A DNA stretch of 64,000 nucleotides from an uncultured Microthrixaceae bacterium (GTDB taxonomy: Bacteria > Actinomycetota > Acidimicrobiia > Acidimicrobiales > DATDAH01). Every line of letters starts with the position of its first letter. The first letter of the stretch is position 1. The stretch is from NCBI GenBank assembly GCA_963725155.1, contig CAVRXU010000007.1, positions 320,131 through 384,130 of the forward strand, written 5' to 3'. A program made the position numbers and the translations under genes. The notes under the pieces were generated by a model that ran no database searches, had not been told where the DNA came from, and was given only the letters and a program-made list of their open reading frames with translations. Shown one piece after another: positions 8,149 through 34,229 of this stretch.

Positions 8149-8436
8149 ATGGTCGGCTACGAGGTGGTGTTCAAGGACAAGACGGTGGAGCGGATCTTCG
8201 GCGCCGACGCCTACGCCCAGGAAGGGCCGATGACGACCTTCTTCGAGCGGGCGCCGGGTCGTCAGGTCGTGGACTGCTGGAGCAACCGTGTGGCCAGCCT
8301 GCGCACCCAGGACATCCTGATCATCCGCCGTGAAGCAGGCTGCGCAGTGGGACCGGAGCAGCTCGGTGGACCTTCAGCTTCGGCGACGCCGGACGTGCTG
8401 AGCGAAGCGACGCCAGTCGACTGTCATGGCACGTAG
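8149..8436 (+). CDS. Hypothetical small protein (95 aa); the C-terminal ~28 aa are encoded by a repeat element
   Basis: Internal ATG of ORF 7870..8436. The N-terminal 60 aa (MVGYEVVFKDKTVERIFGADAYAQEGPMTTFFERAPGRQVVDCWSNRVASLRTQDILIIRRE) have protein-like composition. I recognise no family. Confidence 0.35.
   Translation: MVGYEVVFKDKTVERIFGADAYAQEGPMTTFFERAPGRQVVDCWSNRVASLRTQDILIIRREAGCAVGPEQLGGPSASATPDVLSEATPVDCHGT
8345..8425. repeat. Dispersed copy of the 99-bp GC-rich repeat family (see 25461-25763)
   Basis: By-eye alignment: gcgcagtgggaccggagcagctcggtggaccttcagcttcggcgacgccggacgtgctgagcgaagcgacgccagtcga versus the unit gcggagtcggagcggagcagctcagcggaccctcgggatcggcggcgccggagttgctgagcgaagcgaagccactcaga. 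Confidence 0.6.
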
Positions 8437-9542
8437 TTTCCCACCCACGCCAGCGCGCTGAGGGCGACGACCCCGGCCCCGCCGAGGGCCAGGGCGGCCC
8501 GGTCCAGTTCGGGGCGACGGGTGACCGTGGCGAGGGCCAGCACCAGGGGGAAGGCGTTCAGCCCGTACCGCTCGAGGGAGTTGAAGCTCTCGGCGCTGAG
8601 GGCCACGACCACCATCGGCACGGTGTAGACGGCGTAGCGCACGGGCCAGCGCCGCACCACGACCACGGTGAGGGCCACGAAGAGCAGGGCCATCGGGGGA
8701 TGGACGGCGTCACCGAGCCGGCTGGCGCTGACCATGTCCCCCGCGGCGTCGACCAGGCGGGAGAGCGGGTTGGTGATCGCGCCTCGGTACGGGCTCTGCT
8801 CGGTCAACGGGGCGAAGAACCCCGGACCGGTGGCCGCCGTGTAGAGGAGGTAGGCGCCGACGCCGATCGGGGCGCCGAGCACGGCGGCAGCTCGCCCCAG
8901 CCAGGCCCGGCCGTGCACGTCCCGCCAATCCCGGCTGACCTCCCAGAGGGCGGGCAGGGCGAGGAACAGGCCCAGGGGACGAGACAACCCGACGGCCACC
9001 CCGAGCGCGCCGGCCAGCCACCAGGCCTGGCGGCGCAGGGCGAGGAAGGCGCCGATGAGGCCGACGAGCATCACGGCCTCGGCGTAGCCCCAGACGAGCA
9101 CGAAGGCGCCGGGGAACAGGGCGAAGAACCAGGCCGCCCGACGGGCGAGCGCCTCGTCATCGGTCTCCTCGAGAGCCAGGCGGTACAGGAGCATCCCGGC
9201 CACGAGGGCGGCGCCGTTGGCCACGAGGATGAGGGCGAGGCCCTGGTTGCCGGCCAGGAGCCAGCCGAGCCCGCGACCCAGGAGCGGGAAGAGCGGGAAG
9301 AAGCGGACGGCCTCGGGAGGCAGCGGGCCGTAGCCGTCGGCGGCGATCGCGTCGTACCAGTCGCCGTCCCAGGCCAGGAGGTGCTGGTCCAGCTTGGGGG
9401 TGGCCCGGTGCGGGGCGAACTCGTCGGCCGCGGCGGCGACCAGGACGTAGGCCACGACCACGAGGACCCGAGCCACCACCCACGGCGGCAACGCGGCGGA
9501 CAGATCGGCCCGCCGCTCCGGCGTCCAGAGCCGGCGGATCAC
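8424..9542 (-). CDS. GT-C membrane glycosyltransferase, PIG-V / GT76-like mannosyltransferase family
   Basis: Polytopic protein. The motif LLAWDGDWYDAIAADGY...RFFPLFPLLGR is characteristic of PIG-V-like proteins. Start set at GTG 9542, which overlaps the upstream stop (GTGA). Confidence 0.6.
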   Translation of the reverse strand: MIRRLWTPERRADLSAALPPWVVARVLVVVAYVLVAAAADEFAPHRATPKLDQHLLAWDGDWYDAIAADGYGPLPPEAVRFFPLFPLLGRGLGWLLAGNQGLALILVANGAALVAGMLLYRLALEETDDEALARRAAWFFALFPGAFVLVWGYAEAVMLVGLIGAFLALRRQAWWLAGALGVAVGLSRPLGLFLALPALWEVSRDWRDVHGRAWLGRAAAVLGAPIGVGAYLLYTAATGPGFFAPLTEQSPYRGAITNPLSRLVDAAGDMVSASRLGDAVHPPMALLFVALTVVVVRRWPVRYAVYTVPMVVVALSAESFNSLERYGLNAFPLVLALATVTRRPELDRAALALGGAGVVALSALAWVGNYVP

Positions 9543-11182
9543 GGTGCTGGGTACTTGTGGAGGTTGGCGTTCTCGAAGTAGGTGTCGGAGTTGGCCTGCA
9601 GGGCGGGGCCGTTGCCCGGCCGGGCCTGGGCCAGGAGACGTTGGACCTCGGTGCACTGGGTCTCGAGGGTGATGTACTCCGGGCTCCACGCCAGCCAGAT
9701 GGTGTGGCCCTCGGCCTCAGCCAGCACGGCGGCGACGAACGCCTCGGGGTCGGAGGCGGCGTTCCGCTCGGCGTAGTCGACCCAGTCCACGAACTCGGGC
9801 GGGTCGAGATCGGGATAGGTCACCTCGGTGAAGTCACCGTCGAGGGCCCGGCTCCCGGCCGGACCGATCTGGTCCGGGCAGTAGACCACGAGGTCGCCGG
9901 CCGTCCCCCGCTCCTCGATGACCGACGCCAGAGCGTCCATCTGCGTGCGCTCGTTGGTGACCACGTCGATGACGCCGAACGCCGAGGTGGCCAGGAAGGC
10001 GAGCAGGGCGAGAACGAGGGCAAGGGTCCCGGTGAAGCGATGGAGGCCCCACGCCGCGCCGAGCACCACGAGCGGCGCCACCATCGCCAGGTAGCGCGGC
10101 GCGAAGCCGGAGTTGGTCAGGTAGCCGGCGGCCACCGCGATGAGGAGGGTCAGCGCCCCGATCAGGAGCTCGAGGCGGACATCGGGCCGGGTGCGCAGGT
10201 CGAGCTCGATGGTGGATCGGTCCCGGCTCCGCCCGAACAACCCGAGGACGAGGAGCAGGCCCAGCACCATCGAGAAGAGGATCCGCTCGGCGTTGTCGAC
10301 CCCGCCGAGGTCGGAGAAGAGCTGCGCCAGCACCTTCGTCGGTCGCTCGGGCTCGGCCCAGGGGGTCCCCGTGCTGCGGGCCTGCTCGAGGAAGCTGGGC
10401 AGCCACGGCAGGAAGAGGAGGCCGCCGGCGGCCACCGCGGCGATGACCCGGAGCCGGGCCGAGCGCTCCTCCCCCGTCGCCCGCCACCAGGCCACCACGA
10501 GGACGAGCCCGGTGGCCCCGAGGAGGTAGAAGGCCCAGTAGTGGGTCAGGAGGAGGGCGCCGGAGACGAGGGTCACGGGGATCAGGCGACCCCACGACGG
10601 CTGCTCCAGGGCCCGTTGCACGACGAGCCAGCCGACGAAGACCAGGAGCATGACCAGGGCGTACATGCGGGCTTCGGTGCCGTACCGGCTGGCGAAGGGC
10701 AGGGCCCCGAGCACGAGGAGGGTGAGCCAGCCCAGGGTGGCGCCGCCCGCCCGACGACCGACGAACCAGGCCACGGGCAGGGTGGCGACGGCGAGGAGGC
10801 CGGAAAGCGCACGGACCTCGACGTCGCCGACGCCGAAGAGCTCGGTCCAGACGTGGAGGAGGACGTAGTAGAGCGGGGGGTGCCCGTCGTGACGGAGGGC
10901 TTCGCCGATGTCGCCCAGGGGCAGCGTGGCGATGTTGACGCTGAGCGCTTCGTCCAGCCACAGGGCCGACGTGGTGAGGAATCGGGTCACCGAACCGACC
11001 ACGGCCACGACGAGGGCCAGGGCGACCAGCCATGTAGGCGGCGAGGGGGCGGACGGGGTACCGTCGGGGCCGCCGCGTCGCTCGCTCGCGCCGGTCCGTT
11101 CCTCTACGGACACGGGCCGGGACTGTACCGGCGTCGCCCCGTCCACCGTGGCCGCTCCGGGCGTCCTGCACGGCCCCGCCAC
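9539..11182 (-). CDS. GT-C membrane glycosyltransferase, GT39 / ArnT / PMT_2-like
   Basis: Polytopic N-terminal half with LWLDEALSVNIA...HDGHPPLYYVLLHVWTELFG...RALSGL. GTG 11113 is an alternative start that would leave an 89-bp divergent intergenic region. Confidence 0.65.
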   Translation of the reverse strand: MAGPCRTPGAATVDGATPVQSRPVSVEERTGASERRGGPDGTPSAPSPPTWLVALALVVAVVGSVTRFLTTSALWLDEALSVNIATLPLGDIGEALRHDGHPPLYYVLLHVWTELFGVGDVEVRALSGLLAVATLPVAWFVGRRAGGATLGWLTLLVLGALPFASRYGTEARMYALVMLLVFVGWLVVQRALEQPSWGRLIPVTLVSGALLLTHYWAFYLLGATGLVLVVAWWRATGEERSARLRVIAAVAAGGLLFLPWLPSFLEQARSTGTPWAEPERPTKVLAQLFSDLGGVDNAERILFSMVLGLLLVLGLFGRSRDRSTIELDLRTRPDVRLELLIGALTLLIAVAAGYLTNSGFAPRYLAMVAPLVVLGAAWGLHRFTGTLALVLALLAFLATSAFGVIDVVTNERTQMDALASVIEERGTAGDLVVYCPDQIGPAGSRALDGDFTEVTYPDLDPPEFVDWVDYAERNAASDPEAFVAAVLAEAEGHTIWLAWSPEYITLETQCTEVQRLLAQARPGNGPALQANSDTYFENANLHKYPAP

Positions 11183-11202: not shown

Positions 11203-12728
11203 ATGACCCCGCCCCCCTCCCCTGACGCCCCCGACCAGCACGGCGCCGAGCCCGGTGCCGTGGTCATCATCGGCGCCGGCCCCGCCGGTCTGACCGCGGC
11301 CTACACCCTGGGCCAGCGGGGCGTCGCCTCCACGATCCTCGAGGCCGACGACGTCGTCGGCGGGATCAGCCGCACGGTCGAGCGCGACGGCTGGCGCTTC
11401 GACATCGGTGGGCACCGCTTCTTCACCAAGGTCAAGCCCGTCGAAGCCCTGTGGCACGAGATCCTCGCCGACGAGGACTTCATGCTCCGGCCCCGGATGA
11501 GCCGGATCTACTACGACGGGAAGTACTTCGACTACCCGCTCAAGGCCTTCAACGCCTTGCGCAACCTGGGCCTGATCGAGGCCTTCCTCTGCGTGATGTC
11601 CTACCTCTGGGTCCGGGTGCGGCCGCCCAAGAACCAGGACAAGTTCGAGGGCTGGGTGGCGTCCCGCTTCGGCTGGCGCCTCTACCGCACCTTCTTCAAG
11701 ACCTACACCGAGAAGGTCTGGGGCATCCCGGCCGAGGAGATGCCGGCGGACTGGGCCGCCCAGCGCATCAAGAACCTCTCCCTCTTCAAGGCGGTGATGA
11801 ACGCCCTCCTGCCCAAGCGCAACCAGAAGGAGATCACCAGCCTCATCGAGGAGTTCGAGTACCCGAAGTACGGCCCCGGGATGATGTGGGAGCGCTGCAC
11901 CGAGAAGGTCCAGGCCCAGGGGTCGTCGGTGCACATGCAGACCCGGGTGGAGGGGATCCGCCACGCCGACGGTCGGGCCGTCGCCGTCGTGGCCGGGGGC
12001 GACGAGTACCCCTGCGACCACGTGATCTCCTCGATGCCGTTCACCCAACTGCTCAAGGCGATGGACCCGCCGGTGCCGGCCGAGGTCCTCGCCGCGGCGG
12101 ACGACATCAGCTACCGCGACTTCCTCACCATCGCCCTGGTCGTGCCCGAGGAGGCCGGCTTCCCGGACAACTGGATCTACATCCACGCCCCCGACGTCAT
12201 GGTCGGGCGCATCCAGAACTTCGGCTCCTGGTCGCCGTACATGGTGAAGGAGGGCCGGACCTGCCTCGGCCTCGAGTACTTCGTCTTCGAGGGCGACGAG
12301 CTCGTGGACGGCGGCGGACGAGGCGCTCGTCGCCCAGGGCGACGCGGGAGCTGGTGACCCTCGGCCTCATCGCGGCCGACAAGGTCGAGGCCGGGTACGT
12401 GGTGCGGATGCCCAAGGCCTATCCCATCTACGACGAGACCTACGCCGACAACGTCGACGTGCTCCGGAGCTGGCTCGAGGCCAACACGCCCAACGTGCTC
12501 CCGGTCGGTCGCAACGGGATGCACAAGTACAACAACCAGGACCACTCGATGTACACGGCCATGCTGACCGTGGAGAACCTCTACGGCGCCGACCACGACA
12601 TCTGGGCCGTGAACGTCGAGGAGGAGTACCACGAGGAGGGCGAGGCGGTCGAGGAGATCCGGGAGTCCGGCACCGGTCGCGCCGCTCCGGTCATCCCCAA
12701 GGCGGCCGACCCCGCCCGTCGACACTGA
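11203..12728 (+). pseudogene. NAD(P)/FAD-dependent oxidoreductase (amine-oxidase / UDP-galactopyranose-mutase-like fold), reading frame broken near 12304 and 12344
   Basis: The N-terminal 366 aa (IIGAGPAGLTAAY dinucleotide motif) are in frame 1. The C-terminal part (RELVTLGLIAADKVEAGYVVRMPKAYPIYDE...GRNGMHKYNNQDHSM) is in frame 0. A short frame-2 bridge reads SWTAADEALVAQGD. Confidence 0.7.
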
Positions 12729-12748: not shown

Positions 12749-13999
12749 GTGGCGAGCCGTGATCGGTTCTGGGTCAAGCTGGCGCTGATCGCCCTGCTCG
12801 CCCTCGCCGTCCGCGTGGGCTACATCGGCGTGGCCAAGTGGTCCGACGAGGTCGAGTTCAGCGACGCCTTGTACTACGCCACCCAGGCCCAGGTCCTGGC
12901 GGAAGGTGGGGGGTTCGACTCTCGGGACCACGAACGGCCGGCGGCCGACCATGCTCCCCTCACCCAGGTCTCCCAGGCGCCCACCGCGCTGGTCTTCGGC
13001 CGGAGCGTGCTGGCCCAACGCCTGGTGCAGGCCGTGTACGGGGCCTTGGCGGTCGTGGCCATCGCCCTCCTGGCCCGGAAGGTCACCGGCCAGGACCGCG
13101 TGGCCCTGTGGGCGGGGCTCGTAGCCGCCGTGTATCCCAACCTCTGGGCCAACGACGCCGTGATCATGGCCGAGACGCTCACCGTCTTGCTCGTCGCCGT
13201 CCTCCTGTGGGCGGTCTACGACTACGAGGACGCCCCGGGCGGGCGCCGAGCCGTTCTCGTCGGCGCCCTGGCGGGGCTGGCTGCGCTGTCCCGGGCCGAG
13301 CTGGCCCTGCTCGGGGTCCTCGCCTTCGCCCCCCTCGCCCTGACCGCCGTCGGGCCCTGGTCACGGCGCCTCGGGCACCTCGCCCTCGCCGGCCTCGCGG
13401 GCATGGTGGTCTTGGCCCCCTGGCTGGTCTACAACGCCGGTCGGTTCGACCGGACCGTCCTGATCTCCACCAACGACGGCCTGACCCTCGTCGGGGCCAA
13501 TTGCGACACCCAGTACGACGGCCCGGACCCTGGCCTGTGGGACATCGCCTGCCTCCCGGCGGGGTCCTTCACCGATGCGCAGAGCCGCGACCAGTCCGTG
13601 ATCAACGCCGACTATCGCCACGTCGCCGTGGAGTACGCGCTGGACAACATCGGGGACCTGCCGCGGGTGGCCGCGGTCCGGGTGGCCCGCACGTGGAGCC
13701 TCTATGACCCGGCGTCGATGGTGCGGTTCAACGAGAACGAGGGACGGGAGCCGCCGGTGGGTTGGGCGGGGTTCGTGTCCTTCTGGCTGCTCGTGCCCTT
13801 CGCGGTGGGCGGCGCGTTGGTGCTCCGGGAACGGCGGCGGACGATCTGGCCACTGCTGTCGACCGTGGTCGTGGTCACCGTCGTCTCGGCCCTGTTCTAC
13901 GGGTTGGTGCGCTTCCGGGCGCCGGCCGAGGTCGCCTTGGTGGTGTTCGCCGCGGTCGCGCTGGCCGAGCTCCAGGACCGTCGTAGCGTCCCGGCGTGA
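12749..13999 (+). CDS. GT-C membrane glycosyltransferase (ArnT/GT39-like), paralog 1 of 4
   Basis: GTG start. Polytopic. Shares motifs with the other three paralogs: YPNLWANDAVIMAETL, LSRAE, CDTQYDG...DIAC, VRFRAPAEVALV. Confidence 0.7.
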   Translation: MASRDRFWVKLALIALLALAVRVGYIGVAKWSDEVEFSDALYYATQAQVLAEGGGFDSRDHERPAADHAPLTQVSQAPTALVFGRSVLAQRLVQAVYGALAVVAIALLARKVTGQDRVALWAGLVAAVYPNLWANDAVIMAETLTVLLVAVLLWAVYDYEDAPGGRRAVLVGALAGLAALSRAELALLGVLAFAPLALTAVGPWSRRLGHLALAGLAGMVVLAPWLVYNAGRFDRTVLISTNDGLTLVGANCDTQYDGPDPGLWDIACLPAGSFTDAQSRDQSVINADYRHVAVEYALDNIGDLPRVAAVRVARTWSLYDPASMVRFNENEGREPPVGWAGFVSFWLLVPFAVGGALVLRERRRTIWPLLSTVVVVTVVSALFYGLVRFRAPAEVALVVFAAVALAELQDRRSVPA

Positions 14000-14844
14000 G
14001 CCGTCTCGCCCCGGTCGCCATGATCGGCCTGGCGATCGCCCTCCTGGTGGGCTGTGGCGACGACGGGACCGCGGGCTCGTCGCCGACATCCGGGCCGGCC
14101 GACATCGCGACGAGCCGGCCGACGACCAGCGTGGTCCCCACGACGGAGGCGCCCGTACCCCAGCCCTTGCCGGGCGGGAACCTGGAGGTGCTGGCGGTGG
14201 GCGATTCGGTCATGTTCGACGCGACGGCGGCCATCCAGGCCGCGCTCGGGGCGACGGGCGCGGCGACGGTCCGCGCCGAGTCGGCCTTCGGCCTGGGCTT
14301 CTCCGACGGCGCGGCCGTCCCGTTCGCCGATGCCGCCGACGAGATCCTCGAAGGTGATCCCGCCGACCAGGTCGTCGTGATGGTCGGCTCGTGGGACCAC
14401 CTCACCGCCCAACGCGATCCCGAGGCCTATGCCGCGGCCGTCCACGACGCGCTGACGACCCTCGCCGATGACGGTCGCTCGGTGCTCGTGCTCGGCGAGC
14501 CCCCCAGCGATCCGGCCAAGGGCGAGGAGTCGGCCCGCACGGTGGTCAACCAGACCCTCGAGGCCGAGGCCGCCACCGTCGCGGGGGTGACCTACCTGCC
14601 CACCGACGAGGTCATCGGGGACGCCGACGGCGAGTACGTGCTGCGGGACGACCGCGGCGCCCTCCTGCGCAAGCCCGACGGTCGCCACCTCTGCCCCGAG
14701 GGGGCCGAGCGCTTCGGGGCGGCCGTCGTGACCGCGCTGCGCGAGGAGTGGGCGCTCCCGGGTCCCGACCCGACCTGGGTCGACGGGGCCTGGCGCACGG
14801 ACCGCCGCTACGACGACCCGCCCGGGGGCTGTGCCGCCGCCTGA
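13996..14844 (+). CDS. SGNH-hydrolase-fold lipoprotein, paralog 1 of 4
   Basis: GTG 13996 overlaps the upstream stop (GTGA). Lipobox LLVGC, T/P/S-rich linker, block I VLAVGDSVM, block V DGRHLCPEG, and a C-terminal W..W...GGC tail. Confidence 0.7.
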   Translation: MSRLAPVAMIGLAIALLVGCGDDGTAGSSPTSGPADIATSRPTTSVVPTTEAPVPQPLPGGNLEVLAVGDSVMFDATAAIQAALGATGAATVRAESAFGLGFSDGAAVPFADAADEILEGDPADQVVVMVGSWDHLTAQRDPEAYAAAVHDALTTLADDGRSVLVLGEPPSDPAKGEESARTVVNQTLEAEAATVAGVTYLPTDEVIGDADGEYVLRDDRGALLRKPDGRHLCPEGAERFGAAVVTALREEWALPGPDPTWVDGAWRTDRRYDDPPGGCAAA

Positions 14845-16187: not shown

Positions 16188-16588
16188 TCGCCCTCCTGAC
16201 GCTCAGTGCGTGCGGGGGCGACGACGGTGGCGGCGGAACGGACTCCGACGGGACGACGGCGACGTCGGTGGCCGGTGCCGACCTCAGCTCCTACGACACC
16301 GTCAGCGACCTCAACGATGCCCTCGGCGCCGGTGGCGTCGAGTGTGAGTTGGAGTACGAGGGCCTGACCGATGAGATCCGCGAGCTCAGCCAGTGCACCA
16401 TCGACGGCGGCCAGGCCATCCTCACCATCTGGTACGACGCCGACCTCATGACCGAGTTCCTCGCCCCCGAAGGGGCCGATCCGCCCGTCGCAGTGGCCTA
16501 CGGCGAGGACTGGACGGTCGAGCTCACCGACCCCGCCACCGCTGCCACCGTGGCCGAGGCCGCCGGTGGCACCACCACCGACGGCTGA
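16160..16588 (+). CDS. Hypothetical lipoprotein
   Basis: GTG start. Signal peptide with lipobox (VKASLATVAIALLTLSAC) followed by a Gly/Asp-rich linker. No recognised domain. Confidence 0.5.
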   Translation: MKASLATVAIALLTLSACGGDDGGGGTDSDGTTATSVAGADLSSYDTVSDLNDALGAGGVECELEYEGLTDEIRELSQCTIDGGQAILTIWYDADLMTEFLAPEGADPPVAVAYGEDWTVELTDPATAATVAEAAGGTTTDG

Positions 16589-18940: not shown

Positions 18941-18961
18941 GGCTCGAGAGGGCGGGCGCGC

Positions 18962-23477: not shown

Positions 23478-23555
23478 CGTGGGGCAGCGTAGTGAGCCGC
23501 ACCCCCTGCTCGGCCGCGGGTCCCCGGGAGCCCACGCCCTAGGATCGGCGCCGAG

Positions 23556-25763: not shown

Positions 25764-25778
25764 GCTCCACCGCTCGTC

Positions 25779-28700: not shown

Positions 28701-30142
28701 CCGCCCGTTCCTCGGCCCATCTGGCCGGCTCGCTGGCCGCCCGGGCCTCCTCCGCGTTGGACGGGGACCCGTCGACCGCCTGGACGACGCCCTTCAACTC
28801 CCTCATGGGCCAGTACATGGAGGTCGAGTTGCCTGAGGCGCGGACCGTGGACCACCTGGACCTCCAGGTCGTGGCCGACGGCCGTCACTCGGTTCCCACC
28901 CGGATTCGCCTCACCGCAGGGGACGAATCCCGGGAGTTGACGGTGCCGCGGCTCCACGCCGGCGCCCGACCGGGGGCGGTGACCGACGTCCCGCTCGCGT
29001 TCGACCCCCTGGAGGGCGACACGTTCCGCCTCACCGTGCTCGAGGCTCGGCGGGCCACGACCATCGACTGGTACAGCGGTGGCCCCGCCATCCTCCCGAT
29101 CGGCATCGCCGAGATGGGCCTGCCCGGCGTCGTCCGGCCGGTGCCGCCCGAGGACGTGAGCGACCGCTGCCGCGACGACCTCCTGACCGTCGACGGCGAG
29201 CCGGTATCGGTCAGCCTCTCGGGCACGACCACCGATGCCGAGGCTCGACTGCCGCTCGCCCTCGAGGCCTGCGCCGGTCCCATCACGGCGTCGGGCGAGA
29301 CCGACCTCGTCGCCGCCGAGGGTCAGGACACTGGCCTGGACATCGACGCCCTCACCCTTTCCTCCGGTCCCGATGGCGGTGCCGCCGCTCCCGGGGTCAC
29401 GGGCACGGTGCCGCCCCCTCCATCGGTCGATCTCGAGACGCCCCACCTGCTCGAGTACCGGACCGAGGCCGACACCGACGAGCCGTACTGGTTGGCCGTC
29501 GGGCAGAGCTACGGGCCGGAATGGGCCGCCGATGCCGAGGGCGGCGAGATCCTCGGCCACGAGATCGTGTCCGGCTTCGCCAATGGCTGGTACGTCCAGC
29601 CCGACGGTGACGGTCCGGTCGCCGTGACCGTCACCTGGCCCCCGCAGCGACCGATCTGGCTGGCGATCGCGATCTCCCTCGTGGCGCTGTTGCTGTGCGG
29701 CATCGCCCTCGTGTTCGACCGCCGGCGGGCCAACCAGCCCGCCCGCGACCGGGCGCCGGCCATCACCCTGCTCTGGCCCCCGGCTCCGGAACGGCAGCTC
29801 GTGGCCGGTCGACCCGCCGTCGTGGCGATCGCCGGTGCCGCGGTCGGCGGCTGGTTGCTGGCCACGCCGGTGGTGGCCCTTGCCCTGGCCGTCGCCATGG
29901 CCGCGACGCTGCGGTGGCGGTGGGGCTCGCTCACCGTCCGCTTGGGCGCCGTGCTGGTCGTCCTCGGAGCCAGCCTCTACATCTTCACCAAGCAGTTGAC
30001 CGACAACCTGCCGCCGGACTTCGGCTGGCCCCAGAACTTCGACGCCGCCCACTGGGTGACCATGGGCGCCGTACTCGCCCTCGGCGTCGATGCTGTGGCC
30101 GAGTTGGTCCGGAGTCGGAGCCACTGGCGGATCGGGTCATGA
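25779..30142 (+). pseudogene. AftD-like / DUF3367 alpha-(1->3)-arabinofuranosyltransferase-family GT-C protein (~1450 aa), split by a -1 frameshift near 28115
   Basis: N-terminus ...YLPLVFTQPGQVGADTKTYLYLDPGRLL...WDPGVGLGGVTHQ is typical of this family. ORF 25779..28160 and ORF 28157..30142 join seamlessly (..DGDPRTAWKVGAFA|EVEGEYLRITTDEPVTTDHIGL..) if one base is restored. Confidence 0.7.
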
Positions 30143-31164
30143 AGCGGGTCGCGGTGGTCGTCGGTGTCCTGGTGGTCGTCGTCGTGCTGGCCGAGGTCGG
30201 GGCCCGGGCCTTTTCGCCCTACCTGCCTGAGCCATCCCTCTGGACCGACGACACCACCACCGTCAAGGTGGCCCAGCTCGACGCCCGGGCCTGTGTGGAC
30301 CTGGTCTTCGCCGGCAACTCGATGACCCGGGACGGCCTCGACCCGGTGGCGTTCGGCGAGGCCGACGCCGAGGACCGGATCACCTACAACGCCGCCCTCG
30401 ACGCCGCCACCCCCGCCCTGCTCCAGCGGTGGGTGCTGGACGAGGTCGATCCGCGGGTCGATCCCGACGGCGTCGTCCTCGGCCTCTCCAGCTTCGACCT
30501 GAACGACAACGCGGCCATCGGGCAGTCCGCCCTCGAGGCCTACGACAGTGCCCCCCTCAGCCGGGACGACATCTTCGGCCGGCTTCAGGCGCCCTTCATC
30601 GAGCACCTGGACCTGTTCCGCTACCGCAACCAGCTCCGGGACCCCGAGGTGGTCTGGGACGGCTTGGGGGCGTGGCGGGACGGTGACCGACAGCCCCGGC
30701 TGGGCCCTGATGGCCTGGAGGGGCTCCTGGGCCCGGAAGGTCAGGGTCTTTCGCGCCGCGACCTGAACTACGAGCCCAGCCCGCTGACGGAGCGCTTCGC
30801 CCAGAACGAGCTGCTCAACGACTTCCACCTCGGGGGGGAGCAGACCGAGGCGGCCGAGGACCTCCTGGCCGGCCTGGCCGACCGGGACGTCGACACCGCC
30901 GTGGTCGTCCTCCCGGTGACCCAGGACTACGTCGACCTCCACCCCGGGGGCAGGGCCCAGTACGACGAGTTCCTGGCCCTGGCCGAGCGCATCGCCACCG
31001 AGAACGGCGCCGAGTTCATCGACCTCCACGATCTGGCCCCCGACGACTCCTGGTTCGCCGACACCCACCACCTCAACGCCACCGGCTCCGCCGCCCTCAG
31101 CCAGGCCCTCCCCGCCCTCCTCGGCCCCGACTTCGCCCAGGGCAGCAGATGTGAAAGCGGCTGA
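30139..31164 (+). CDS. Membrane-anchored SGNH-like (DltD/AlgX-type) esterase or acyltransferase
   Basis: ATG 30139 overlaps the AftD-like stop (ATGA). N-terminal TM anchor, FAGNSMT (Ser block), and FADTHHLNATGSAALS (DxxH block). Confidence 0.45.
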   Translation: MKRVAVVVGVLVVVVVLAEVGARAFSPYLPEPSLWTDDTTTVKVAQLDARACVDLVFAGNSMTRDGLDPVAFGEADAEDRITYNAALDAATPALLQRWVLDEVDPRVDPDGVVLGLSSFDLNDNAAIGQSALEAYDSAPLSRDDIFGRLQAPFIEHLDLFRYRNQLRDPEVVWDGLGAWRDGDRQPRLGPDGLEGLLGPEGQGLSRRDLNYEPSPLTERFAQNELLNDFHLGGEQTEAAEDLLAGLADRDVDTAVVVLPVTQDYVDLHPGGRAQYDEFLALAERIATENGAEFIDLHDLAPDDSWFADTHHLNATGSAALSQALPALLGPDFAQGSRCESG

Positions 31165-31383: not shown

Positions 31384-32262
31384 TCACGCTTCGGGGCATT
31401 CCTCCGGAGGGAAGACCCAGCGCCAGTTGCGGTTGGACCAGTCCTCGGCCAGGGGGACGTCCCACTGGCGCTGGAGGTACCGGAGGACCGGGCGGGCCAG
31501 TCGCTCGGCGCCGTCGGCGCAGAGGTGCGTGGCGTCGAGGCGCCGGACGCGCTGGGGGGTGCCGCGGGGCCCCGGGAGGACGTCGGCCCAGCTCCCGTCG
31601 GGCCGGGCCAGGATGGTGTCACCCGGGATGTAGGTGAGGTCCGGGGAGTCGTGGGCCAGCTGGCGCACCGCCCGGTTCATCGACGACCACTCGAGTTGAC
31701 GGCGCGGGTCGATCGACGGGGGCATGGCGACCCACACGACGTCGGCGCCCTCGCTGGTCAGGAGGTCGAGGTAGGGATCGAGGTTCTCTCGCCGGTAGGC
31801 CCGCAGCCACGCCCGGGTGCCCAGGGGCTGCTCGCGGAGCGCGTCCTCGGCCATGCCCTCCCAGACGCCGATCATGATCACGACGACCTCGGGGTCGTAC
31901 TGGTCGAGCTGTCGGCGCCACAGGGTCCGCGTCACGTCCTCGCGGGGGATGCTCGGGGCGGCGACGAGGCGGGCGACGGCGTGACCCCCGTCCTGCAGCG
32001 TGGAGGAGATGGCCAGCGAGATGTCGGCCATGAGGGAGTCACCGGCCATGAGGACGCGGAGGGGGTCGTCGGCTGTGGGCCGCCGCCCGCCCGGTGGCGG
32101 CGGCGCGGTCGTGGTGGTGGGGCTGCTCGAGGTGGAGGAGGTGGTCGAGGCCGCCGGTGCGTCGACCGCCGTCGGGGCGGCCCTTTCGTCGCCTTCCCCG
32201 CAGGCGGTGGCCAGCAGGGCGACGGTGAGCAGCGCCACGACGAGCGGCGCCCGCCGCGTCAA
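31384..32262 (-). CDS. SGNH-hydrolase-fold lipoprotein, paralog 4 of 4
   Basis: TTG 32262 overlaps the upstream stop (TTGA). Lipobox LLATAC, S/T/P linker, VLMAGDSLM, DATHLCADG, and a C-terminal W...W...EEC tail. Confidence 0.65.
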   Translation of the reverse strand: MTRRAPLVVALLTVALLATACGEGDERAAPTAVDAPAASTTSSTSSSPTTTTAPPPPGGRRPTADDPLRVLMAGDSLMADISLAISSTLQDGGHAVARLVAAPSIPREDVTRTLWRRQLDQYDPEVVVIMIGVWEGMAEDALREQPLGTRAWLRAYRRENLDPYLDLLTSEGADVVWVAMPPSIDPRRQLEWSSMNRAVRQLAHDSPDLTYIPGDTILARPDGSWADVLPGPRGTPQRVRRLDATHLCADGAERLARPVLRYLQRQWDVPLAEDWSNRNWRWVFPPEECPEA

Positions 32263-32960
32263 CGTCCGAAGAGACGGATGCGTAGCAGGATCCACAGGGC
32301 GTCCACACCGTCGAGCCACGTGATCTTCTTGCCCTCCTCGCGGCTGCGGGCCTTGTAGCTGATGGGGACCTCGTAGATCCTCTCCCCCCGGCGTAGCAGT
32401 CCTCCGGTGACCTCGGCCTCGATCCCGAAGCCCGACGCCTTGGGCGCCACCTCCCGCCAGAGCTCGGTGGGGGCCACCTTGAGGCACGTCTCCACGTCCG
32501 ACAGCCACGCGTTGTAGAGGAGGCTGGCCCAGAACGCGACCAGCTTGTTGCCGAGCACGTACCAGAACGAGTAGGCGGCATTGCTGCCGAAGGAGCGGGT
32601 GCCGTAGACCACTCGGGCGTCCTCGTGCAGGATGGGGTGCAGCAGGTCGACGAAGTCGGCCGGGTCGTACTCGAGGTCGGCATCCAGGATCGTCAGCAGG
32701 TCCGAGGTCGCCTCGTCGAAGCCCCGACGCAGCGCCGCCCCCTTGCCCTGGTTGGGTTCCTGGCGGAACGTGCGGATCGTGTCGTCGGCGGCGACGAGGT
32801 CCTCGATCAGGTCCATGCAGCCGTCGGTGGAGCCGTCGTCGACGATGACCACCTCGCGGTCGACCGGCAGGTCCACGGCCAGCAGTCGCTCGAGCGCGAC
32901 CCGCAGCGTGGCCGCCTCGTTGTACACGGGCATGACGATGGTCAGGGACGAGGGCGTCAT
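32259..32960 (-). CDS. GT2 glycosyltransferase, polyprenyl-phosphate sugar synthase-like
   Basis: Start ATG 32960 (MTPSSLTIVMPVYNEA...). Motifs VVIVDDGSTDG and ILDADLEYDP. Confidence 0.75.
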   Translation of the reverse strand: MTPSSLTIVMPVYNEAATLRVALERLLAVDLPVDREVVIVDDGSTDGCMDLIEDLVAADDTIRTFRQEPNQGKGAALRRGFDEATSDLLTILDADLEYDPADFVDLLHPILHEDARVVYGTRSFGSNAAYSFWYVLGNKLVAFWASLLYNAWLSDVETCLKVAPTELWREVAPKASGFGIEAEVTGGLLRRGERIYEVPISYKARSREEGKKITWLDGVDALWILLRIRLFGR

Positions 32961-33117
32961 CGGTCTCCATCGGTCGGAGGGGGCAGGGGTGGAAGGGGTG
33001 CCGACCGACCGGCGGCAATTAGCATACGGAGGCTCGCAGGCCACCCCTTGGACGTTCTGGAGGCTTCCCATCGACACCGACAGCCGCGACAAGCTCGGCG
33101 ACCTCGCGGCGTCCTCC

Positions 33118-34229
33118 GGCCTTCGGCGGATCCACCTCCTGGCCTGGCGCGACCTCTACGACGTCGAGGCCGGCGGATCCGAGGTCCATGCCGCCGAGGT
33201 CGCCCGCCTCTGGTCCGAGGCCGGCATCGAGGTCACCATGCGGACCTCCTACGCCCAGGGCCATCCCCCCGAGGGCGTCCGTGACGGCTACCGGGTCATC
33301 CGCCGGGCGGGCCGCTACCTGGTGTTCCCCCGGGCCGCGCTGGCCGAGGCGACCGGGCGTCACGGGCCTCGCGACGGCCTGGTCGAGATCTGGAACGGCA
33401 TGCCCTTCCTGTCGCCGATCTGGTGCCGAGGCCCCCGCGTGGCCTGGCTGCACCACGTCCACGGAGCCATGTGGAAGATGGTCCTGCCCCCGAACCTGGC
33501 CGGGGTGGGCGAGCTCATCGAGTCCCGCATCGCCCCGCCGATCTACCGCCGCACCCGGGTCGTGACCCTCTCGGAGTCCTCCAAGCGGGAGATGATCGAC
33601 AAGCTGGGCTTTCGTGCGCAGCGAGTGGACGTGGTCCCCCCTGGCATCGACCCCCGCTTCCAGCCCGGCGGGAAGCGCTCCCCCGACCGCTGGTCGTCGC
33701 TGTGGGTCGCCTGGTGCCGGTCAAGCACTTCGACGGCCTCATCAGAACGATGCAGGAGGTCCGGCGCCACGTCCCGGACGCGGGCCTGACCATCGTCGGC
33801 GAGGGGTTCGAGCGCGAGGACCTCGATGCGCTGGTCCGGGACCTCGACGCCGAGAGCTGGGTCGACTTCGCCGGGAGGGTCTCCGACGACGGCTTGGTCG
33901 ATCTCTACCGACGGGCGTGGGTCGTGGCCAGCGCCTCCAGCCACGAGGGCTGGGGCATGACCCTGACCGAAGCCGCCGCCTGCGGCACCCCCGCTGTGGC
34001 CACCCGCATCTCGGGGCACGTCGACGCTGTGGAAGACGGGGTCGGCGGGCTGTTGGCGGACGATGAGCGTGAGCTCGCCGCCCACCTGGTCTCCGTGCTC
34101 ACCGACGCTGACCTCCGGGCCCGGTTGGGCGAGGGGGCCCGCCGGCGCGCCGCCACGCTGACCTGGGGCGCCACTGCGCTCCAGACGCTGCGGGTGCTGG
34201 CCGAAGAAGCCCGTCGCCGGCGGGGCTGA
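33118..34229 (+). pseudogene. GT4 (GT-B fold) glycosyltransferase, -1 frameshift near 33687; start codon unresolved
   Basis: The N-terminal half (RRIHLLAWRDLYDVEAGGSEVHAAEV...) is in frame 1. The C-terminal half (PLVVAVGRLVPVKHFD...SSHEGWGMTLTEAAACGTPAVA) is in frame 0. Confidence 0.65.

What the first reader, a model, noticed from the sequence alone, without database searches (positions are those of the whole stretch)
8424..34229. A 26-kb extracytoplasmic glycan-assembly island dominated by GT-C transferases with polyprenyl-phosphate-sugar-type GT2 donors
Seven GT-C-type polytopic transferases lie within 22 kb: one PIG-V-like, one GT39-like, four close paralogs and one AftD-like. Alongside them are two small soluble DPM1/Ppm1-like GT2 enzymes, one of which is ATGA-coupled to a DUF2304 membrane protein. 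The island also holds a GT4, an FAD oxidoreductase, a SAM methyltransferase, a CE4 deacetylase, a GNAT and six SGNH-type proteins. There is no Wzx/Wzy/ABC exporter and no sugar-nucleotide synthesis gene in the island. This composition argues for stepwise decoration of a wall-bound polymer on the outer face of the membrane from lipid-linked monosaccharide donors. That is the logic of mycobacterial arabinogalactan/LAM assembly (Emb/Aft/Mpt enzymes using DPA/PPM). The GT2 + GT-C + deacetylase combination also parallels the PpgS (Rv3631) / Rv3779 route that adds GalN to arabinogalactan. The polymer made here is unknown.
Basis: partly seen in the sequence, partly recalled or inferred. Interest (0 to 1): 0.6.

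Follow-up and report, generated by a model that had tools for sequence, protein, structure and literature searches.

The report
Acidimicrobiia GT-C envelope-glycan locus
This is a real, conserved but uncharacterised gene cluster of uncultured soil Acidimicrobiia that most likely builds a cell-envelope sugar polymer outside the membrane, and its conserved heart includes an overlooked enzyme that probably makes a furanose (five-membered-ring) sugar donor.

Summary
Seven GT-C transferases lie in 21.7 kb, with two polyprenyl-phosphate-type GT2 enzymes (one ATGA-coupled to DUF2304), a GT4, a CE4 deacetylase, a methyltransferase and six SGNH proteins. No exporter is present.

Corrections:
- The window comes from a Microthrixaceae-like acidimicrobial genome. 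The locus is ancestral and syntenic, not an acquired island.
- Three genes are split by frameshifts unique to this sequence: the AftD-like gene (g27+g28, about 1440 aa when repaired), the GT4, and the "FAD oxidoreductase" (g11+g12).
- That oxidoreductase is a UDP-galactopyranose-mutase-like flavoenzyme, so "no sugar-nucleotide gene" is wrong.
- The "GNAT" (g20) could not be verified.

Across 44 acidimicrobial loci the conserved core is UGM-like + GT4 + AftD-like, often with a PpgS/GacI-like GT2 (± DUF2304), a second GT2 and an AT3-SGNH acyltransferase. The four PMT_2 paralogs, SGNH lipoproteins, CE4/g20 and the methyltransferase are an expansion specific to this lineage.

The best reading is extracytoplasmic assembly and O-acylation of a probably furanose-containing envelope glycan from polyprenyl-phosphate sugars. 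The product, acceptor and flippase are unknown. It is a new variant of a known logic, of moderate interest.

The parts
8424..9542 (-). g9: small GT-C (372 aa), PIG-V/GT87-like, GTGA-coupled to g10
   Evidence: It has no Pfam hit of its own. The only weak hits are the NCBIfam AZOBR_p60025 family at 2e-5 and GT87 at E=0.32. Homologs carry PF04188. The model has pLDDT 89, and its top 38 PDB hits are all GT-C.
9539..11008 (-). g10: PMT_2-type GT-C (489 aa), not a paralog of the other four
   Evidence: PMT_2 scores 38.8 bits against a 26.1 cut-off. It has no BLAST similarity to g13/15/21/22.
11203..12728 (+). g11+g12: a single UDP-galactopyranose-mutase-like flavoenzyme (PRK07208 family, about 505 aa), split by two 1-nt insertions at about 12303 and 12342
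   Evidence: - g11 and g12 match consecutive parts of NF005548.
- The intact ortholog matches TcUGM 4DSG at E=7e-21 nearly end to end.
- UGMs are the top fold hits.
- The hallmark residues are conserved.
- The indels are mapped.
12749..13999 (+). g13: PMT_2 GT-C paralog, GTGA-coupled to g14
   Evidence: PMT_2 scores 51.1 bits. Paralogy is shown and the coupling.
13996..14844 (+). g14: DUF459 SGNH lipoprotein (LVGC lipobox, P/T-rich linker)
   Evidence: DUF459 scores 64 bits. The lipobox, GDS and DxxH motifs are shown.
14808..16169 (-). g15: PMT_2 GT-C paralog
   Evidence: PMT_2 scores 44.9 bits. It is 45% identical to g21. It is present in L001 and absent from L002.
16268..16588 (+). g16: conserved small acidic protein (106 aa), function unknown, usually next to a DUF459 gene
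   Evidence: It matches a 102-aa ORF in L002, L005 and L008-L011. It has no family hit.
16617..17282 (+). g17: divergent SGNH-type protein (221 aa)
   Evidence: It has no Pfam hit. It carries block I VGDSLLG and block V DGVH. An ortholog is present in L001.
17261..18109 (+). g18: DUF459 SGNH lipoprotein (start approximate)
   Evidence: DUF459 scores 50 bits. The LVGC lipobox is shown, and the L002 ortholog of 272 aa.
18116..18940 (-). g19: CE4 deacetylase + DUF3473, no signal peptide (cytoplasmic)
   Evidence: Polysacc_deac_1 and DUF3473 are both hit. The best NCBIfam model is the XrtA-system polysaccharide deacetylase at 175 bits against a 276 cut-off. No TM segment is predicted.
   Evidence: It has no Pfam, NCBIfam or PDB hit. 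It travels with the CE4 gene in L001, L002, L008-L011, L010, L014 and L026.
19879..21279 (-). g21: PMT_2 GT-C paralog
   Evidence: PMT_2 scores 43 bits. Paralogy is shown.
21276..22589 (-). g22: PMT_2 GT-C paralog, GTGA-coupled to g21
   Evidence: PMT_2 scores 27.7 bits against a 26.1 cut-off.
22617..23480 (-). g23: DUF459 SGNH protein with an N-terminal signal and a near-lipobox (start approximate), first gene of the g23-g19 operon
   Evidence: DUF459 scores 85.7 bits. The N-terminus and motifs are shown.
23556..24299 (+). g24: PpgS/GacI-like polyprenyl-phosphate glycosyltransferase (GT2)
   Evidence: - Glycos_transf_2 scores 99 bits.
- The best NCBIfam model is PpgS, at 102 bits against a 370 cut-off.
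- It carries a DGDGQ motif.
- Its PDB relatives are ArnC, DPMS and GtrB.
24296..24691 (+). g25: DUF2304 3-TM partner (GacJ/Rv3632/WpsB-like), ATGA overlap with g24
   Evidence: DUF2304 scores 80.5 bits. The start is set by orthologs, the ATGA is verified and three TM segments are predicted.
24710..25441 (-). g26: SAM methyltransferase (Methyltransf_23)
   Evidence: Identified. It is related to the MTase domain fused to a UGM-like domain in P0427.
25461..25764 (.). 99-bp tandem repeat x3.1 in the divergent g26/g27 promoter region
   Evidence: TRF reports 98% matches. The motif recurs at 31322-31348. There is no fold signal and no Rfam hit.
25779..30142 (+). g27+g28: a single AftD-family GT-C (about 1440 aa: N-terminal GT-C, F5/8-C and CBM_AftD modules, 4 C-terminal TM segments), split by a 1-nt deletion at 28113
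   Evidence: - GT-C_AftD scores 311.7 bits and CBM_AftD is also hit.
- M. abscessus AftD (6W98) matches at E=2.5e-30.
- The frameshift is shown against fused relatives.
- Topology is shown.
30139..31164 (+). g29: DltD-like SGNH protein with an N-terminal TM anchor, ATGA-coupled to the AftD-like gene
   Evidence: DltD and Lipase_GDSL_2 hits appear. GNS and DxxH motifs are shown and the coupling.
31384..32262 (-). g30: DUF459 SGNH protein (signal, S/T/P-rich linker), TTGA-coupled to g31
   Evidence: DUF459 scores 84.9 bits.
32259..32960 (-). g31: DPM1/AglJ-like GT2, a probable second polyprenyl-phosphate sugar synthase
   Evidence: Glycos_transf_2 scores 105.7 bits. The best PDB match is DPMS over residues 6-211. 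Its motif is DADLE, a DxDxE variant.
33184..34229 (+). GT4 (about 350 aa), split by a 1-nt deletion at 33685 in a C-run
   Evidence: Glycos_transf_1 scores 117.8 bits. The frame switch against the L002 350-aa ortholog is shown and the indel. A homolog lies within 10 kb of the AftD-like gene in 41 of 44 loci.
34233..34907 (+). g33: alpha/beta hydrolase, a possible accessory gene
   Evidence: Abhydrolase_1/6 hits. It lies near the AftD-like gene in 18 of 44 loci.
40988..42829 (-). g40: AT3-DUF459 fused O-acyltransferase (SucT/OafA-like architecture), a core partner lying outside the stated coordinates
   Evidence: Acyl_transf_3 and DUF459 are both hit. The best NCBIfam model is SucT, at 86 bits against a 1275 cut-off. 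It lies near the AftD-like gene in 15 of 44 loci and is adjacent in L006.
43043..43903 (-). g41: GT2c, a soluble GT2 without a DxDxQ motif (likely a Leloir transferase), a core partner lying outside the stated coordinates
   Evidence: GT2 Pfam hits. The best NCBIfam model is GlfT1, weak at 42 bits. No motif is found. It lies near the AftD-like gene in 18 of 44 loci, often between the UGM-like gene and the GT4.

Best explanation
The locus is an ancestral acidimicrobial cell-envelope glycan assembly pathway.

Proposed steps:
1. In the cytoplasm, the UGM-like flavoenzyme converts a UDP-pyranose into a UDP-furanose (inferred).
2. The GT4 and the motif-less GT2c act as Leloir enzymes that build or prime a lipid-linked acceptor (inferred).
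3. The PpgS/GacI-like GT2, held at the membrane by its DUF2304 partner, and the DPM1-like GT2 load sugars onto polyprenyl phosphate (strongly inferred from family, motif and gene coupling).
4. An unidentified flippase moves these lipids outward.
5. The AftD-family GT-C, guided by its carbohydrate-binding modules, together with the other six GT-Cs, transfers the sugars to the growing polymer on the outer face.
6. Six exported SGNH proteins and the AT3-DUF459 acyltransferase add or trim O-acyl groups.
7. The cytoplasmic CE4/g20 pair and the methyltransferase tailor precursors.

The minimal and oldest version is UGM-like + GT2 + GT2c + GT4 + AftD-like. This lineage added four PMT_2 paralogs, each paired with an SGNH protein, which implies a more heavily decorated product. 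The product is probably a furanose-containing heteroglycan or lipoglycan, but its sugars and anchor are unknown. In this particular sequence the mutase, the GT4 and the AftD-like gene carry frameshifts, so the pathway is either recently inactivated or the assembly has errors.
For: Family assignments:
- Six GT-Cs are assigned by curated Pfam scores and the seventh by fold.
- AftD family: 311.7 bits; 6W98 at E=2.5e-30; equivalents of M. abscessus E251 and D474 are conserved as E275 (invariant) and D488 (at least 90%) in 21 acidimicrobial homologs (residues from bioRxiv 10.1101/2019.12.22.885152). The repaired length and topology match the family description.
- g24: DxDxQ motif, ArnC/DPMS/GtrB as its only solved relatives, PpgS as best NCBIfam model, and an ATGA-coupled DUF2304. 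GacJ, Rv3632 and WpsB are experimentally shown activators of such GT2s (10.1101/180810; PMC10821137; PMC3485146).

UGM-like enzyme:
- It aligns nearly end to end with TcUGM (E=7e-21). Oxidases match only the FAD motif.
- UGMs are the top fold hits, with TM up to 0.81.
- Equivalents of H63, R182, R327, Y453 and N457 are conserved in 110-123 of 126 diverse representatives (residue roles from PMC3322874).
- The domain is found fused to an NDP-sugar epimerase, GFO/IDH/MocA, GT2, GT4, GT2+PMT_2 and a methyltransferase.

Conservation:
- Full synteny in 85-96% relatives.
- In 44 acidimicrobial loci: GT4 41/44, UGM-like 22/44 (always with GT4), PpgS-like GT2 23/44, at least one other GT-C 30/44.
- A five-gene minimal module lies among housekeeping genes.

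SGNH proteins: all six carry catalytic motifs and export signals, and GT-C/SGNH and GT2/SGNH gene pairs overlap by 4 nt.
Against: - No flippase (Wzx, GtrA, MATE or SMR type), no initiating phosphoglycosyl transferase, no LCP ligase and no DPA-pathway gene were found in the window. Acceptor, anchor and export are therefore unassigned.
- All equivalog-level NCBIfam cut-offs fail: PpgS 102/370, SucT 86/1275, Pmt 38/800, GlfT1 42/330.
- The UGM-like enzyme has no Pfam GLF hit. Protoporphyrinogen oxidases are close second fold matches (TM 0.75). The Asn-207 equivalent, which contacts the galactose C4-OH, is not conserved.
- UGM-like and PpgS-like genes co-occur in only 12 of 44 loci, so the link between them is not obligatory.
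- Nothing is known experimentally about acidimicrobial envelope glycans.
- Three core genes are frameshifted here, so the pathway may not work in this organism.
Confidence: 0.55

Rival explanations
1. Lactococcal-PSP-type logic. The GT2+DUF2304 pair does not make a monosaccharide donor. It primes a polyprenyl-monophosphate-HexNAc that the cytoplasmic GT4 and GT2c extend, using the UDP-furanose from the mutase, into an oligosaccharide. That oligosaccharide is flipped, and GT-C enzymes polymerise it and ligate it en bloc onto another polymer. The remaining GT-Cs add side chains.
For: - WpsA/WpsB are GacI/GacJ homologs whose GlcNAc-P-C55 product is extended by cytoplasmic GTs, including a Galf step fed by Glf. 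The product is then transferred by a GT-C enzyme (PMC10821137).
- Here a cytoplasmic GT4 is the most constant partner (41/44).
- GT2c lacks the polyprenyl-P motif, and its best model is GlfT1.
- The mutase always co-occurs with the GT4, but with the PpgS-like GT2 in only 12 of 22 loci.
Against: - No Wzx-type flippase and no Wzy/WpsI-like polymerase is present.
- The locus has two polyprenyl-P-type GT2s and seven GT-Cs, which suits monosaccharide donors better.
- AftD-family enzymes characterised so far transfer single Araf residues.
- The GlfT1 hit is weak and N-terminal only (42 bits against 330).
Confidence: 0.2
2. Protein O-glycosylation. The PMT_2 paralogs are Pmt-like enzymes that use polyprenyl-P-sugars from g31/g24 to glycosylate the Pro/Thr/Ser-rich linkers of exported proteins, including the SGNH lipoproteins encoded next to them. 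Only the AftD-like core would make a polysaccharide.
For: - g13 has weak hits to PMT (PF02366, E=0.002) and to NCBIfam Pmt (E=9e-10). g15 and g21 have weak STT3-type hits.
- g14, g18, g23 and g30 have lipoprotein or signal N-termini followed by P/T/S-rich linkers.
- These genes are translationally coupled or adjacent to PMT_2 or GT2 genes.
- My own knowledge, not checked here: actinobacterial Pmt mannosylates such linkers using polyprenyl-P-mannose from Ppm1.
Against: - P/T-rich linkers are common in actinobacterial exported proteins.
- The Pmt equivalog score fails badly (38 against 800).
- At 416-466 aa, the paralogs have no room for the large luminal MIR-type domain of GT39 Pmts.
- The SGNH, AT3, CE4 and methyltransferase content is typical of polysaccharide tailoring.
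Confidence: 0.12
3. The FAD enzyme is not a sugar mutase. It is an oxidoreductase of the PPOX/CrtI superfamily that acts on the lipid carrier or some other substrate, and the locus uses only ordinary pyranose donors.
For: - Automatic annotations call it protoporphyrinogen oxidase or NAD(P)/FAD oxidoreductase.
- An NCBIfam PPOX model hits residues 193-426 at 79 bits.
- M. xanthus PPOX is a close fold match (TM 0.75).
- There is no Pfam GLF hit.
Against: - Solved PPOX sequences match only the N-terminal FAD motif (1SEZ at E=2e-5, residues 20-74), whereas UGMs align end to end.
- UGM-specific residues are near-invariant across the family: the GGH loop, both arginines, the tyrosines and NQDHS.
- All fusion partners found are sugar-nucleotide or glycosyltransferase enzymes.
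Confidence: 0.13

Closest known systems
Mycobacterial arabinan assembly (AftD with Emb/AftA-C, DPA donor; SucT acylation)
   Same: - The AftD-family GT-C has the same architecture: N-terminal GT-C domain, F5/8-C and CBM modules, C-terminal TM segments, about 1400 aa.
- Two of the three proposed catalytic acidic residues are conserved.
- Several GT-Cs sit in one pathway.
- An AT3-type acyltransferase has SucT as its best model.
- There is no dedicated exporter in the locus.
   Different: - The class is different (Acidimicrobiia).
- The E475 equivalent is an invariant proline.
- No UbiA/DprE1/DprE2 gene is in the window.
- The conserved neighbours are a GT4 and a UGM-like mutase, which I did not see described for mycobacterial aftD.
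- Donor sugar and acceptor are unknown, and ACP binding is untestable here.
GacI/GacJ/GacK/GacL (Streptococcus), PpgS/Rv3632/Rv3779 (M. tuberculosis) and WpsA/WpsB/WpsG/WpsJ (Lactococcus) multi-component transmembrane glycosylation
   Same: - A soluble GT2 with a DxDxQ motif is translationally coupled to a 3-TM DUF2304 protein.
- GT-C transferases lie in the same locus.
- PpgS is the best-scoring curated model.
- A deacetylase is present, as the GalN route would need.
   Different: - No Wzx-type (or any) flippase gene.
- The PpgS equivalog cut-off is not met (102 against 370).
- Seven GT-Cs instead of one.
- The CE4 is of the XrtA-associated DUF3473 type and is paired with an unknown protein.
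- The sugar is unknown.
Eukaryote-type UDP-galactopyranose mutase (T. cruzi, A. fumigatus UGM)
   Same: - About 500 aa with a three-domain fold (TM 0.73-0.81).
- Conserved features: the GGH flavin loop, equivalents of Arg-182 and Arg-327, the diphosphate tyrosines, and Asn-457/Gln-458/Asp/His/Ser.
   Different: - About 20-22% identity.
- It belongs to a very large bacterial family (NCBIfam PRK07208, named 'hypothetical protein') with no characterised member that I could find.
- The Asn-207 and Asn-163 equivalents differ, so the sugar may not be galactose.
- There is no Pfam GLF hit.
Three-component pentofuranose addition systems (GT136; Kelly et al. 2024, PMC11127046)
   Same: A lipid-linked furanose donor made in the cytoplasm, followed by extracytoplasmic transfer by a GT-C enzyme that carries a CBM.
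   Different: - In those systems the donor comes from PRPP through a UbiA-type synthase with a MATE flippase.
- Here there is no such synthase or flippase. Any furanose would come from a UDP-sugar mutase.

Membership tests
AftD family (Pfam PF11847 GT-C_AftD / former DUF3367) | Significant match to the family profile and to solved AftD | tested here: met
   311.7 bits against a 26 cut-off. 6W98/6WBX match at E=2.5e-30 over residues 20-584.
AftD family (Pfam PF11847 GT-C_AftD / former DUF3367) | Architecture: N-terminal polytopic GT-C, long periplasmic region with CBMs, C-terminal TM bundle, about 1400 aa | tested here: met
   The architecture fits after repairing the 28113 frameshift. The protein is then about 1440 aa, with 9 N-terminal TM segments, F5/8-C plus CBM_AftD, and 4 C-terminal TM segments. 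The family description is from 10.1101/2019.12.22.885152.
AftD family (Pfam PF11847 GT-C_AftD / former DUF3367) | Conserved putative catalytic residues E251, D474, E475 (M. abscessus numbering) | tested here: inconclusive
   E251 aligns with E275 (invariant in 21 homologs). D474 aligns with D488 (at least 90%). E475 aligns with P489 (an invariant proline). The mapping uses a numbering offset that I inferred from the alignment.
AftD family (Pfam PF11847 GT-C_AftD / former DUF3367) | Arabinofuranosyl transfer from decaprenyl-phospho-arabinose; ACP binding | not testable with these tools
   No UbiA/DprE1/DprE2-type gene was found among the annotated window genes. The rest of the genome was not available.
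GacI/GacJ - PpgS/Rv3632 type polyprenyl-phosphate HexNAc synthase pair | GT2 (GT-A) enzyme with the DxDxQ motif of polyprenyl-phosphate glycosyltransferases | tested here: met
   g24 carries DGDGQ at residues 95-99. Its only PDB relatives are ArnC, DPMS and GtrB. g31 has DADLE, a DxDxE variant.
GacI/GacJ - PpgS/Rv3632 type polyprenyl-phosphate HexNAc synthase pair | Co-transcribed small 3-TM DUF2304 partner | tested here: met
   DUF2304 scores 80.5 bits. The ATGA overlap is verified, three TM segments are predicted, and the pairing is conserved in relatives.
GacI/GacJ - PpgS/Rv3632 type polyprenyl-phosphate HexNAc synthase pair | Equivalog-level similarity to PpgS (NCBIfam NF058614) | tested here: not met
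   102.4 bits against a 370 cut-off. It is the best hit but is not an equivalog, so the sugar specificity is open.
Multi-component transmembrane glycosylation system (GT2 + flippase + GT-C) | Dedicated flippase (Wzx, GtrA, SMR/ArnEF or MATE type) in the locus | tested here: not met
   No such Pfam family is found in any island ORF, and no intergenic gap exceeds about 340 bp. None is in the minimal module either.
UDP-galactopyranose mutase (EC 5.4.99.9) | Similarity in sequence and fold to solved UGMs over the whole length | tested here: met
   4DSG matches at E=7e-21, residues 21-464 against 11-454. The top 22 Foldseek hits are UGMs, TM 0.70-0.81. PPOX follows closely at 0.75.
UDP-galactopyranose mutase (EC 5.4.99.9) | Active-site residues: flavin-loop His, two conserved Arg, diphosphate Tyr, Asn-457 | tested here: met
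   Counts out of 126 representatives: H73 120, R190 123, R338 123, Y408 115, Y444 112, N446 110. Residue roles are from PMC3322874.
UDP-galactopyranose mutase (EC 5.4.99.9) | Galactose-specific contacts (Asn-207 to C4-OH) and a Pfam GLF domain | tested here: not met
   The Asn-207 equivalent is a variable E/D or other residue. There is no GLF hit at E<=0.01.
UDP-galactopyranose mutase (EC 5.4.99.9) | Pyranose/furanose interconversion of a UDP-sugar | not testable with these tools
   This needs an enzyme assay.
PMT_2 / GT39-GT83-like GT-C | Pfam PMT_2 above the gathering score | tested here: met
   g10 38.8, g13 51.1, g15 44.9, g21 43.0 and g22 27.7 bits, against 26.1.
PMT_2 / GT39-GT83-like GT-C | Protein O-mannosyltransferase equivalog (NF058602) | tested here: not met
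   g13 scores 38 bits against an 800 cut-off. No PDB sequence hit.
PIG-V / GT-C (g9) | Pfam PF04188 match | tested here: inconclusive
   g9 itself has no hit, while many homologs at about 50% identity do. The GT-C fold is supported by the model.
AT3-SGNH O-acyltransferase (OafA/SucT-like) | Fused Acyl_transf_3 membrane domain and extracytoplasmic SGNH domain | tested here: met
   g40 has Acyl_transf_3 at 84 bits and DUF459 at 65.5 bits, with 10 TM segments. The SucT equivalog is not met (86 against 1275).
   g20 has no Pfam hit up to E=5, no NCBIfam hit and no meaningful PDB hit.

The most novel reading that the evidence does not exclude
The minimal module forms a DPA-independent route to extracytoplasmic furanosylation. 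The UGM-like enzyme makes a UDP-furanose (Galf, GalfNAc or similar). The PpgS-like GT2 (± DUF2304) loads it onto polyprenyl phosphate. The AftD-family GT-C then polymerises or attaches it outside the membrane. That would be the first polyprenyl-phospho-hexofuranose donor. It would also assign a function to the very large bacterial PRK07208 'hypothetical protein' family and to AftD homologs outside the mycolata.
Probability: 0.2. Interest if true: 0.8.

Novelty: new variant of a known kind. Interest (0 to 1): 0.5.

Why it matters
AftD homologs were known to occur in many actinobacterial orders that lack arabinogalactan, but what they do there is unknown. I found nothing on the envelope glycans of Acidimicrobiia, a class that is abundant in soil and water and mostly uncultured.

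This locus supplies a concrete, conserved five-gene module (mutase-like enzyme, two GT2s, GT4, AftD-like) that can be tested in cultured relatives such as Aquihabitans.

It also flags a very large protein family as probable nucleotide-sugar pyranose/furanose mutases. That family has more than 14,000 50%-identity clusters at E<=0.001, and pipelines label its members 'protoporphyrinogen oxidase' or 'hypothetical'. If confirmed, many bacterial glycan loci would need re-annotation, and a new origin for furanose donors of GT-C enzymes might emerge.

Tried and rejected
- **Exact-sequence look-up** of the AftD-like ORF found nothing, which fits its being frameshifted.
- **Horizontally acquired island:** rejected. 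GC content is uniform, the flanks are syntenic, and the minimal module sits among housekeeping genes.
- **Genuine split AftD (GT-C and CBM as separate proteins):** rejected. Five relatives read through the junction with one extra base.
- **Frameshifts as general assembly noise:** no uncompensated frameshift turned up in the flanks I could compare, but without reads this stays open.
- **g20 as a GNAT:** no support from Pfam (to E=5), NCBIfam or PDB.
- **The 99-bp tandem repeat as a structured RNA:** the fold is no better than shuffles, and there is no Rfam hit.
- **PDB sequence searches** for the PMT_2 paralogs, g10 and GT2c found nothing.
- **Literature searches** for PRK07208, AftD with Acidimicrobiia, DUF3367 outside mycobacteria, and lipid-linked galactofuranose found no prior description.
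- **My GC3 gene caller** failed on lower-GC relatives, so I used longest ORFs instead.

Full report
**What is in the sequence.** The window is 72% GC throughout, so I called genes by third-position GC and annotated them with Pfam and NCBIfam.
- Five polytopic proteins pass the PMT_2 gathering score: g10, g13, g15, g21 and g22.
- g27 scores 311.7 bits on GT-C_AftD.
- g9 has no family hit of its own. Its homologs carry PF04188 (PIG-V). A confident model (pLDDT 89, pTM 0.90) matches only GT-C enzymes in its top 38 PDB hits, although TM-scores are modest at 0.45-0.52.
- g13, g15, g21 and g22 are paralogs at 33-45% identity, and g10 stands apart.
- The two soluble GT2s are g24 and g31. The g24 stop overlaps the DUF2304 start as ATGA.
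- A CE4+DUF3473 deacetylase, a Methyltransf_23 enzyme and a GT4 are present.
- There are six SGNH-type proteins: four DUF459, one DltD-like, and g17, which is recognisable only by its GDS and DxxH blocks. All six have catalytic motifs and export signals. Two have canonical lipoboxes, and several have Pro/Thr/Ser-rich linkers.
- There is no exporter and no space for a hidden gene.

**Corrections to the observation.** Comparison with relatives shows that three 'gene pairs' are single genes broken by indels unique to this sequence.
- The AftD-like gene is g27+g28, about 1440 aa when repaired. It lacks one A at 28113 that L001, L002, L007, L008, L009 and L011 all have.
- The GT4 spans 33184-34229 and lacks one C in a C-run at 33685.
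- The 'FAD oxidoreductase' is g11+g12 with two single-base insertions 39 nt apart. The stretch between them still encodes the conserved peptide once the frame is restored.
- In the flanks I could compare, every indel that is not a multiple of three is compensated within a few bases.

The only uncompensated frameshifts seen therefore fall in what turn out to be the three core genes. Without reads I cannot separate recent coordinated inactivation from consensus errors. It has no Pfam, NCBIfam or PDB support.

**Where it comes from.** The best AftD-like homologs are acidimicrobial. The species-representative genome scan returned 548 relatives, and the best 80 are essentially all labelled as Acidimicrobiia or unclassified actinobacterial MAGs. 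They include a 96%-identical soil MAG and 87-89%-identical Microthrixaceae MAGs. Close relatives share the whole locus and its flanks: the Opp/Dpp transporter and cyclophilin on the left, and GGDEF-EAL, MBL, GFO/IDH/MocA and SDR genes on the right. This is a stable chromosomal locus, not an acquired island.

**The conserved core.** I mapped every island protein onto 44 acidimicrobial loci of at least 20 kb.
- A GT4 lies within 10 kb of the AftD-like gene in 41 loci, and ends within 400 bp upstream of it in 31.
- The FAD enzyme is present in 22 loci, always with the GT4. At 60-71% identity it is the best-conserved component.
- The PpgS-like GT2 is in 23 loci, a third GT2 ('GT2c', g41 in the window) in 18, and an AT3-DUF459 acyltransferase (g40) in 15.
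- At least one other GT-C is present in 30 loci.
- A compact version is seen in L005/L006.
- A five-gene minimal module (UGM-like, GT2a, GT2c, GT4, and an intact 1481-aa AftD-like ORF) lies between pyruvate kinase and glutamate synthase in L038.
- The PMT_2 paralogs, standalone DUF459 genes, CE4/g20, the DltD-like gene and the methyltransferase occur together only in the window's clade. Their number varies even among close relatives: g14/g15 are absent from L002 and g18 from L001.
- In the window, g40 and g41 have moved 7-9 kb to the right of the stated interval.

**The FAD enzyme is UGM-like.**
- The intact ortholog passes the cut-off of NCBIfam PRK07208.1-4, which is named only 'hypothetical protein'.
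- Against solved structures it aligns almost end to end with T. cruzi UGM (E=7e-21) and A. fumigatus UGM (about 1e-18). Amine oxidases and PPOX match only the N-terminal FAD motif.
- Its model (pLDDT 78, pTM 0.80) finds UGMs as the top 22 hits (TM 0.70-0.81), with M. xanthus PPOX next at 0.75. Fold alone is therefore not decisive.
- The residues settle it better. Equivalents of His-63 (GGH loop), Arg-182, Arg-327, the diphosphate tyrosines and Asn-457 are conserved in 110-123 of 126 representatives at 36-62% identity. Their roles are documented in PMC3322874.
- The Asn-207 equivalent, which contacts the galactose C4-OH, is not conserved, so the sugar may differ.
- The domain also occurs fused to an NDP-sugar epimerase/dehydratase, GFO/IDH/MocA, GT2, GT4, a methyltransferase, polytopic membrane domains, and GT2+PMT_2 in a single protein.
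- Public annotations mostly say 'protoporphyrinogen oxidase', and I found no paper on the family.

**The donors.**
- g24 has the DxDxQ motif proposed as the hallmark of polyprenyl-phosphate glycosyltransferases (PMC10821137; motif found).
- Its only solved relatives are ArnC, DPMS and GtrB, and PpgS is its best curated model, though far below the equivalog cut-off.
- DUF2304 proteins (GacJ, Rv3632, WpsB) are experimentally shown activators of such GT2s (10.1101/180810; PMC3485146).
- g31 best matches DPMS over its whole length and has a DxDxE variant of the motif.
- g41 has neither motif nor solved relatives. Its best model, weakly, is GlfT1.

**AftD family membership.** The profile score, the match to 6W98, the repaired length and the topology all fit the description by Tan et al.. 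Mapping their candidate catalytic residues through the alignment gives E251 to an invariant E275, D474 to D488 (at least 90% conserved), and E475 to an invariant proline. Donor and acceptor cannot be read from sequence, and no DPA-pathway gene is in the window.

**How it most likely works.**
- *Shown by family evidence:* two cytoplasm-facing polyprenyl-phosphate sugar synthases, seven GT-C enzymes, and six exported SGNH enzymes plus an AT3-SGNH acyltransferase (GT-C enzymes have outward-facing active sites, by established knowledge).
- *Inferred:* a UDP-furanose from the mutase; priming or extension by the GT4 and GT2c in the cytoplasm; flipping by an unidentified protein; stepwise transfer outside; O-acylation by the SGNH/AT3 set; precursor tailoring by CE4/g20 and the methyltransferase.
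- The 4-nt overlaps g13-g14, g28-g29 and g31-g30, and the adjacency g23-g22, suggest that each added transferase comes with its own SGNH partner.

I give this overall logic 0.55. The main rivals are:
- a lactococcal-type route, in which the GT2+DUF2304 product is extended to an oligosaccharide before flipping (0.2);
- protein O-glycosylation by the PMT_2 paralogs (0.12);
- a non-mutase role for the FAD enzyme (0.13).

The most novel reading still open is a polyprenyl-phospho-hexofuranose donor feeding the AftD-like enzyme (0.2).

**Verdict.** The kind of system is known: multi-component GT-C glycosylation with AftD-family enzymes. The conserved UGM-like/GT4/AftD-like core in Acidimicrobiia, the lineage-specific GT-C/SGNH expansion and the unrecognised mutase-like family are new. 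I rate it as moderately interesting.

Noticed in passing
window 25461-25764 and 31322-31379: A 99-bp unit is repeated 3.1 times at 98% identity in the divergent promoter region between the methyltransferase and the AftD-like gene. Its core motif GCTGAGCGAAGCGAAGCCACTCAGATG recurs (2 mismatches) in the g29/g30 intergenic region. The 96% relative L007 has a single copy at that second site. No RNA fold signal and no Rfam hit.
   Followed up: partly
window ~12303, ~12342, 28113, 33685: All uncompensated frameshifts found in the window fall in the three most conserved core genes (UGM-like, AftD-like, GT4). The coding sequence around them is otherwise intact, and only the GT4 indel lies in a homopolymer. 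This could be recent coordinated loss of the pathway or assembly error.
   Followed up: partly
proteins P0363, P0365, P0369, P0371, P0372, P0427, P0430, P0468, P0486 (relatives of window 11203-12728): The PRK07208/UGM-like domain occurs fused to an NDP-sugar epimerase, GFO/IDH/MocA, GT2, GT4, a methyltransferase, 9-11-TM membrane domains, and GT2+PMT_2 in one 1409-aa protein. The family has more than 14,000 50%-identity clusters at E<=0.001 and is mostly annotated as protoporphyrinogen oxidase.
   Followed up: partly
window 13996-14844, 17261-18109, 22617-23480, 31384-32262: The four DUF459 proteins have lipoprotein-type or signal N-termini followed by Pro/Thr/Ser-rich linkers. From memory, actinobacterial Pmt O-glycosylates sequences of this kind. 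Each lies next to a PMT_2 or GT2 gene.
   Followed up: no
window 35020-36681; also L001, L002, L003, L006 and 13 of 44 loci: A GGDEF-EAL protein lies just downstream of the locus and recurs near the AftD-like gene in distant Acidimicrobiia. This hints at c-di-GMP control of the envelope glycan.
   Followed up: no
window 44022-48032; L003 18712-22530: A conservon-like set (NIT-HAMP histidine kinase, Roadblock/LC7, ATP_bind_1 GTPase) lies about 10-14 kb downstream of the AftD-like gene. A similar set (NIT/HAMP, HATPase, DUF742) lies near the AftD-like gene in Aquihabitans daechungensis.
   Followed up: no
window 16268-16588: A small acidic 106-aa protein with no TM segment and no family is conserved as a 102-aa ORF next to DUF459 genes in close and distant relatives (L002, L005/L006, L008-L011, L010, L026).
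   Followed up: no
window 18116-19882: The cytoplasmic CE4+DUF3473 deacetylase (best model: XrtA-system polysaccharide deacetylase) always travels with the unknown 306-aa protein g20. From memory, XrtA/PEP-CTERM loci pair this deacetylase with a FemAB-family protein, so g20 may be a very divergent counterpart. Not tested.
   Followed up: no
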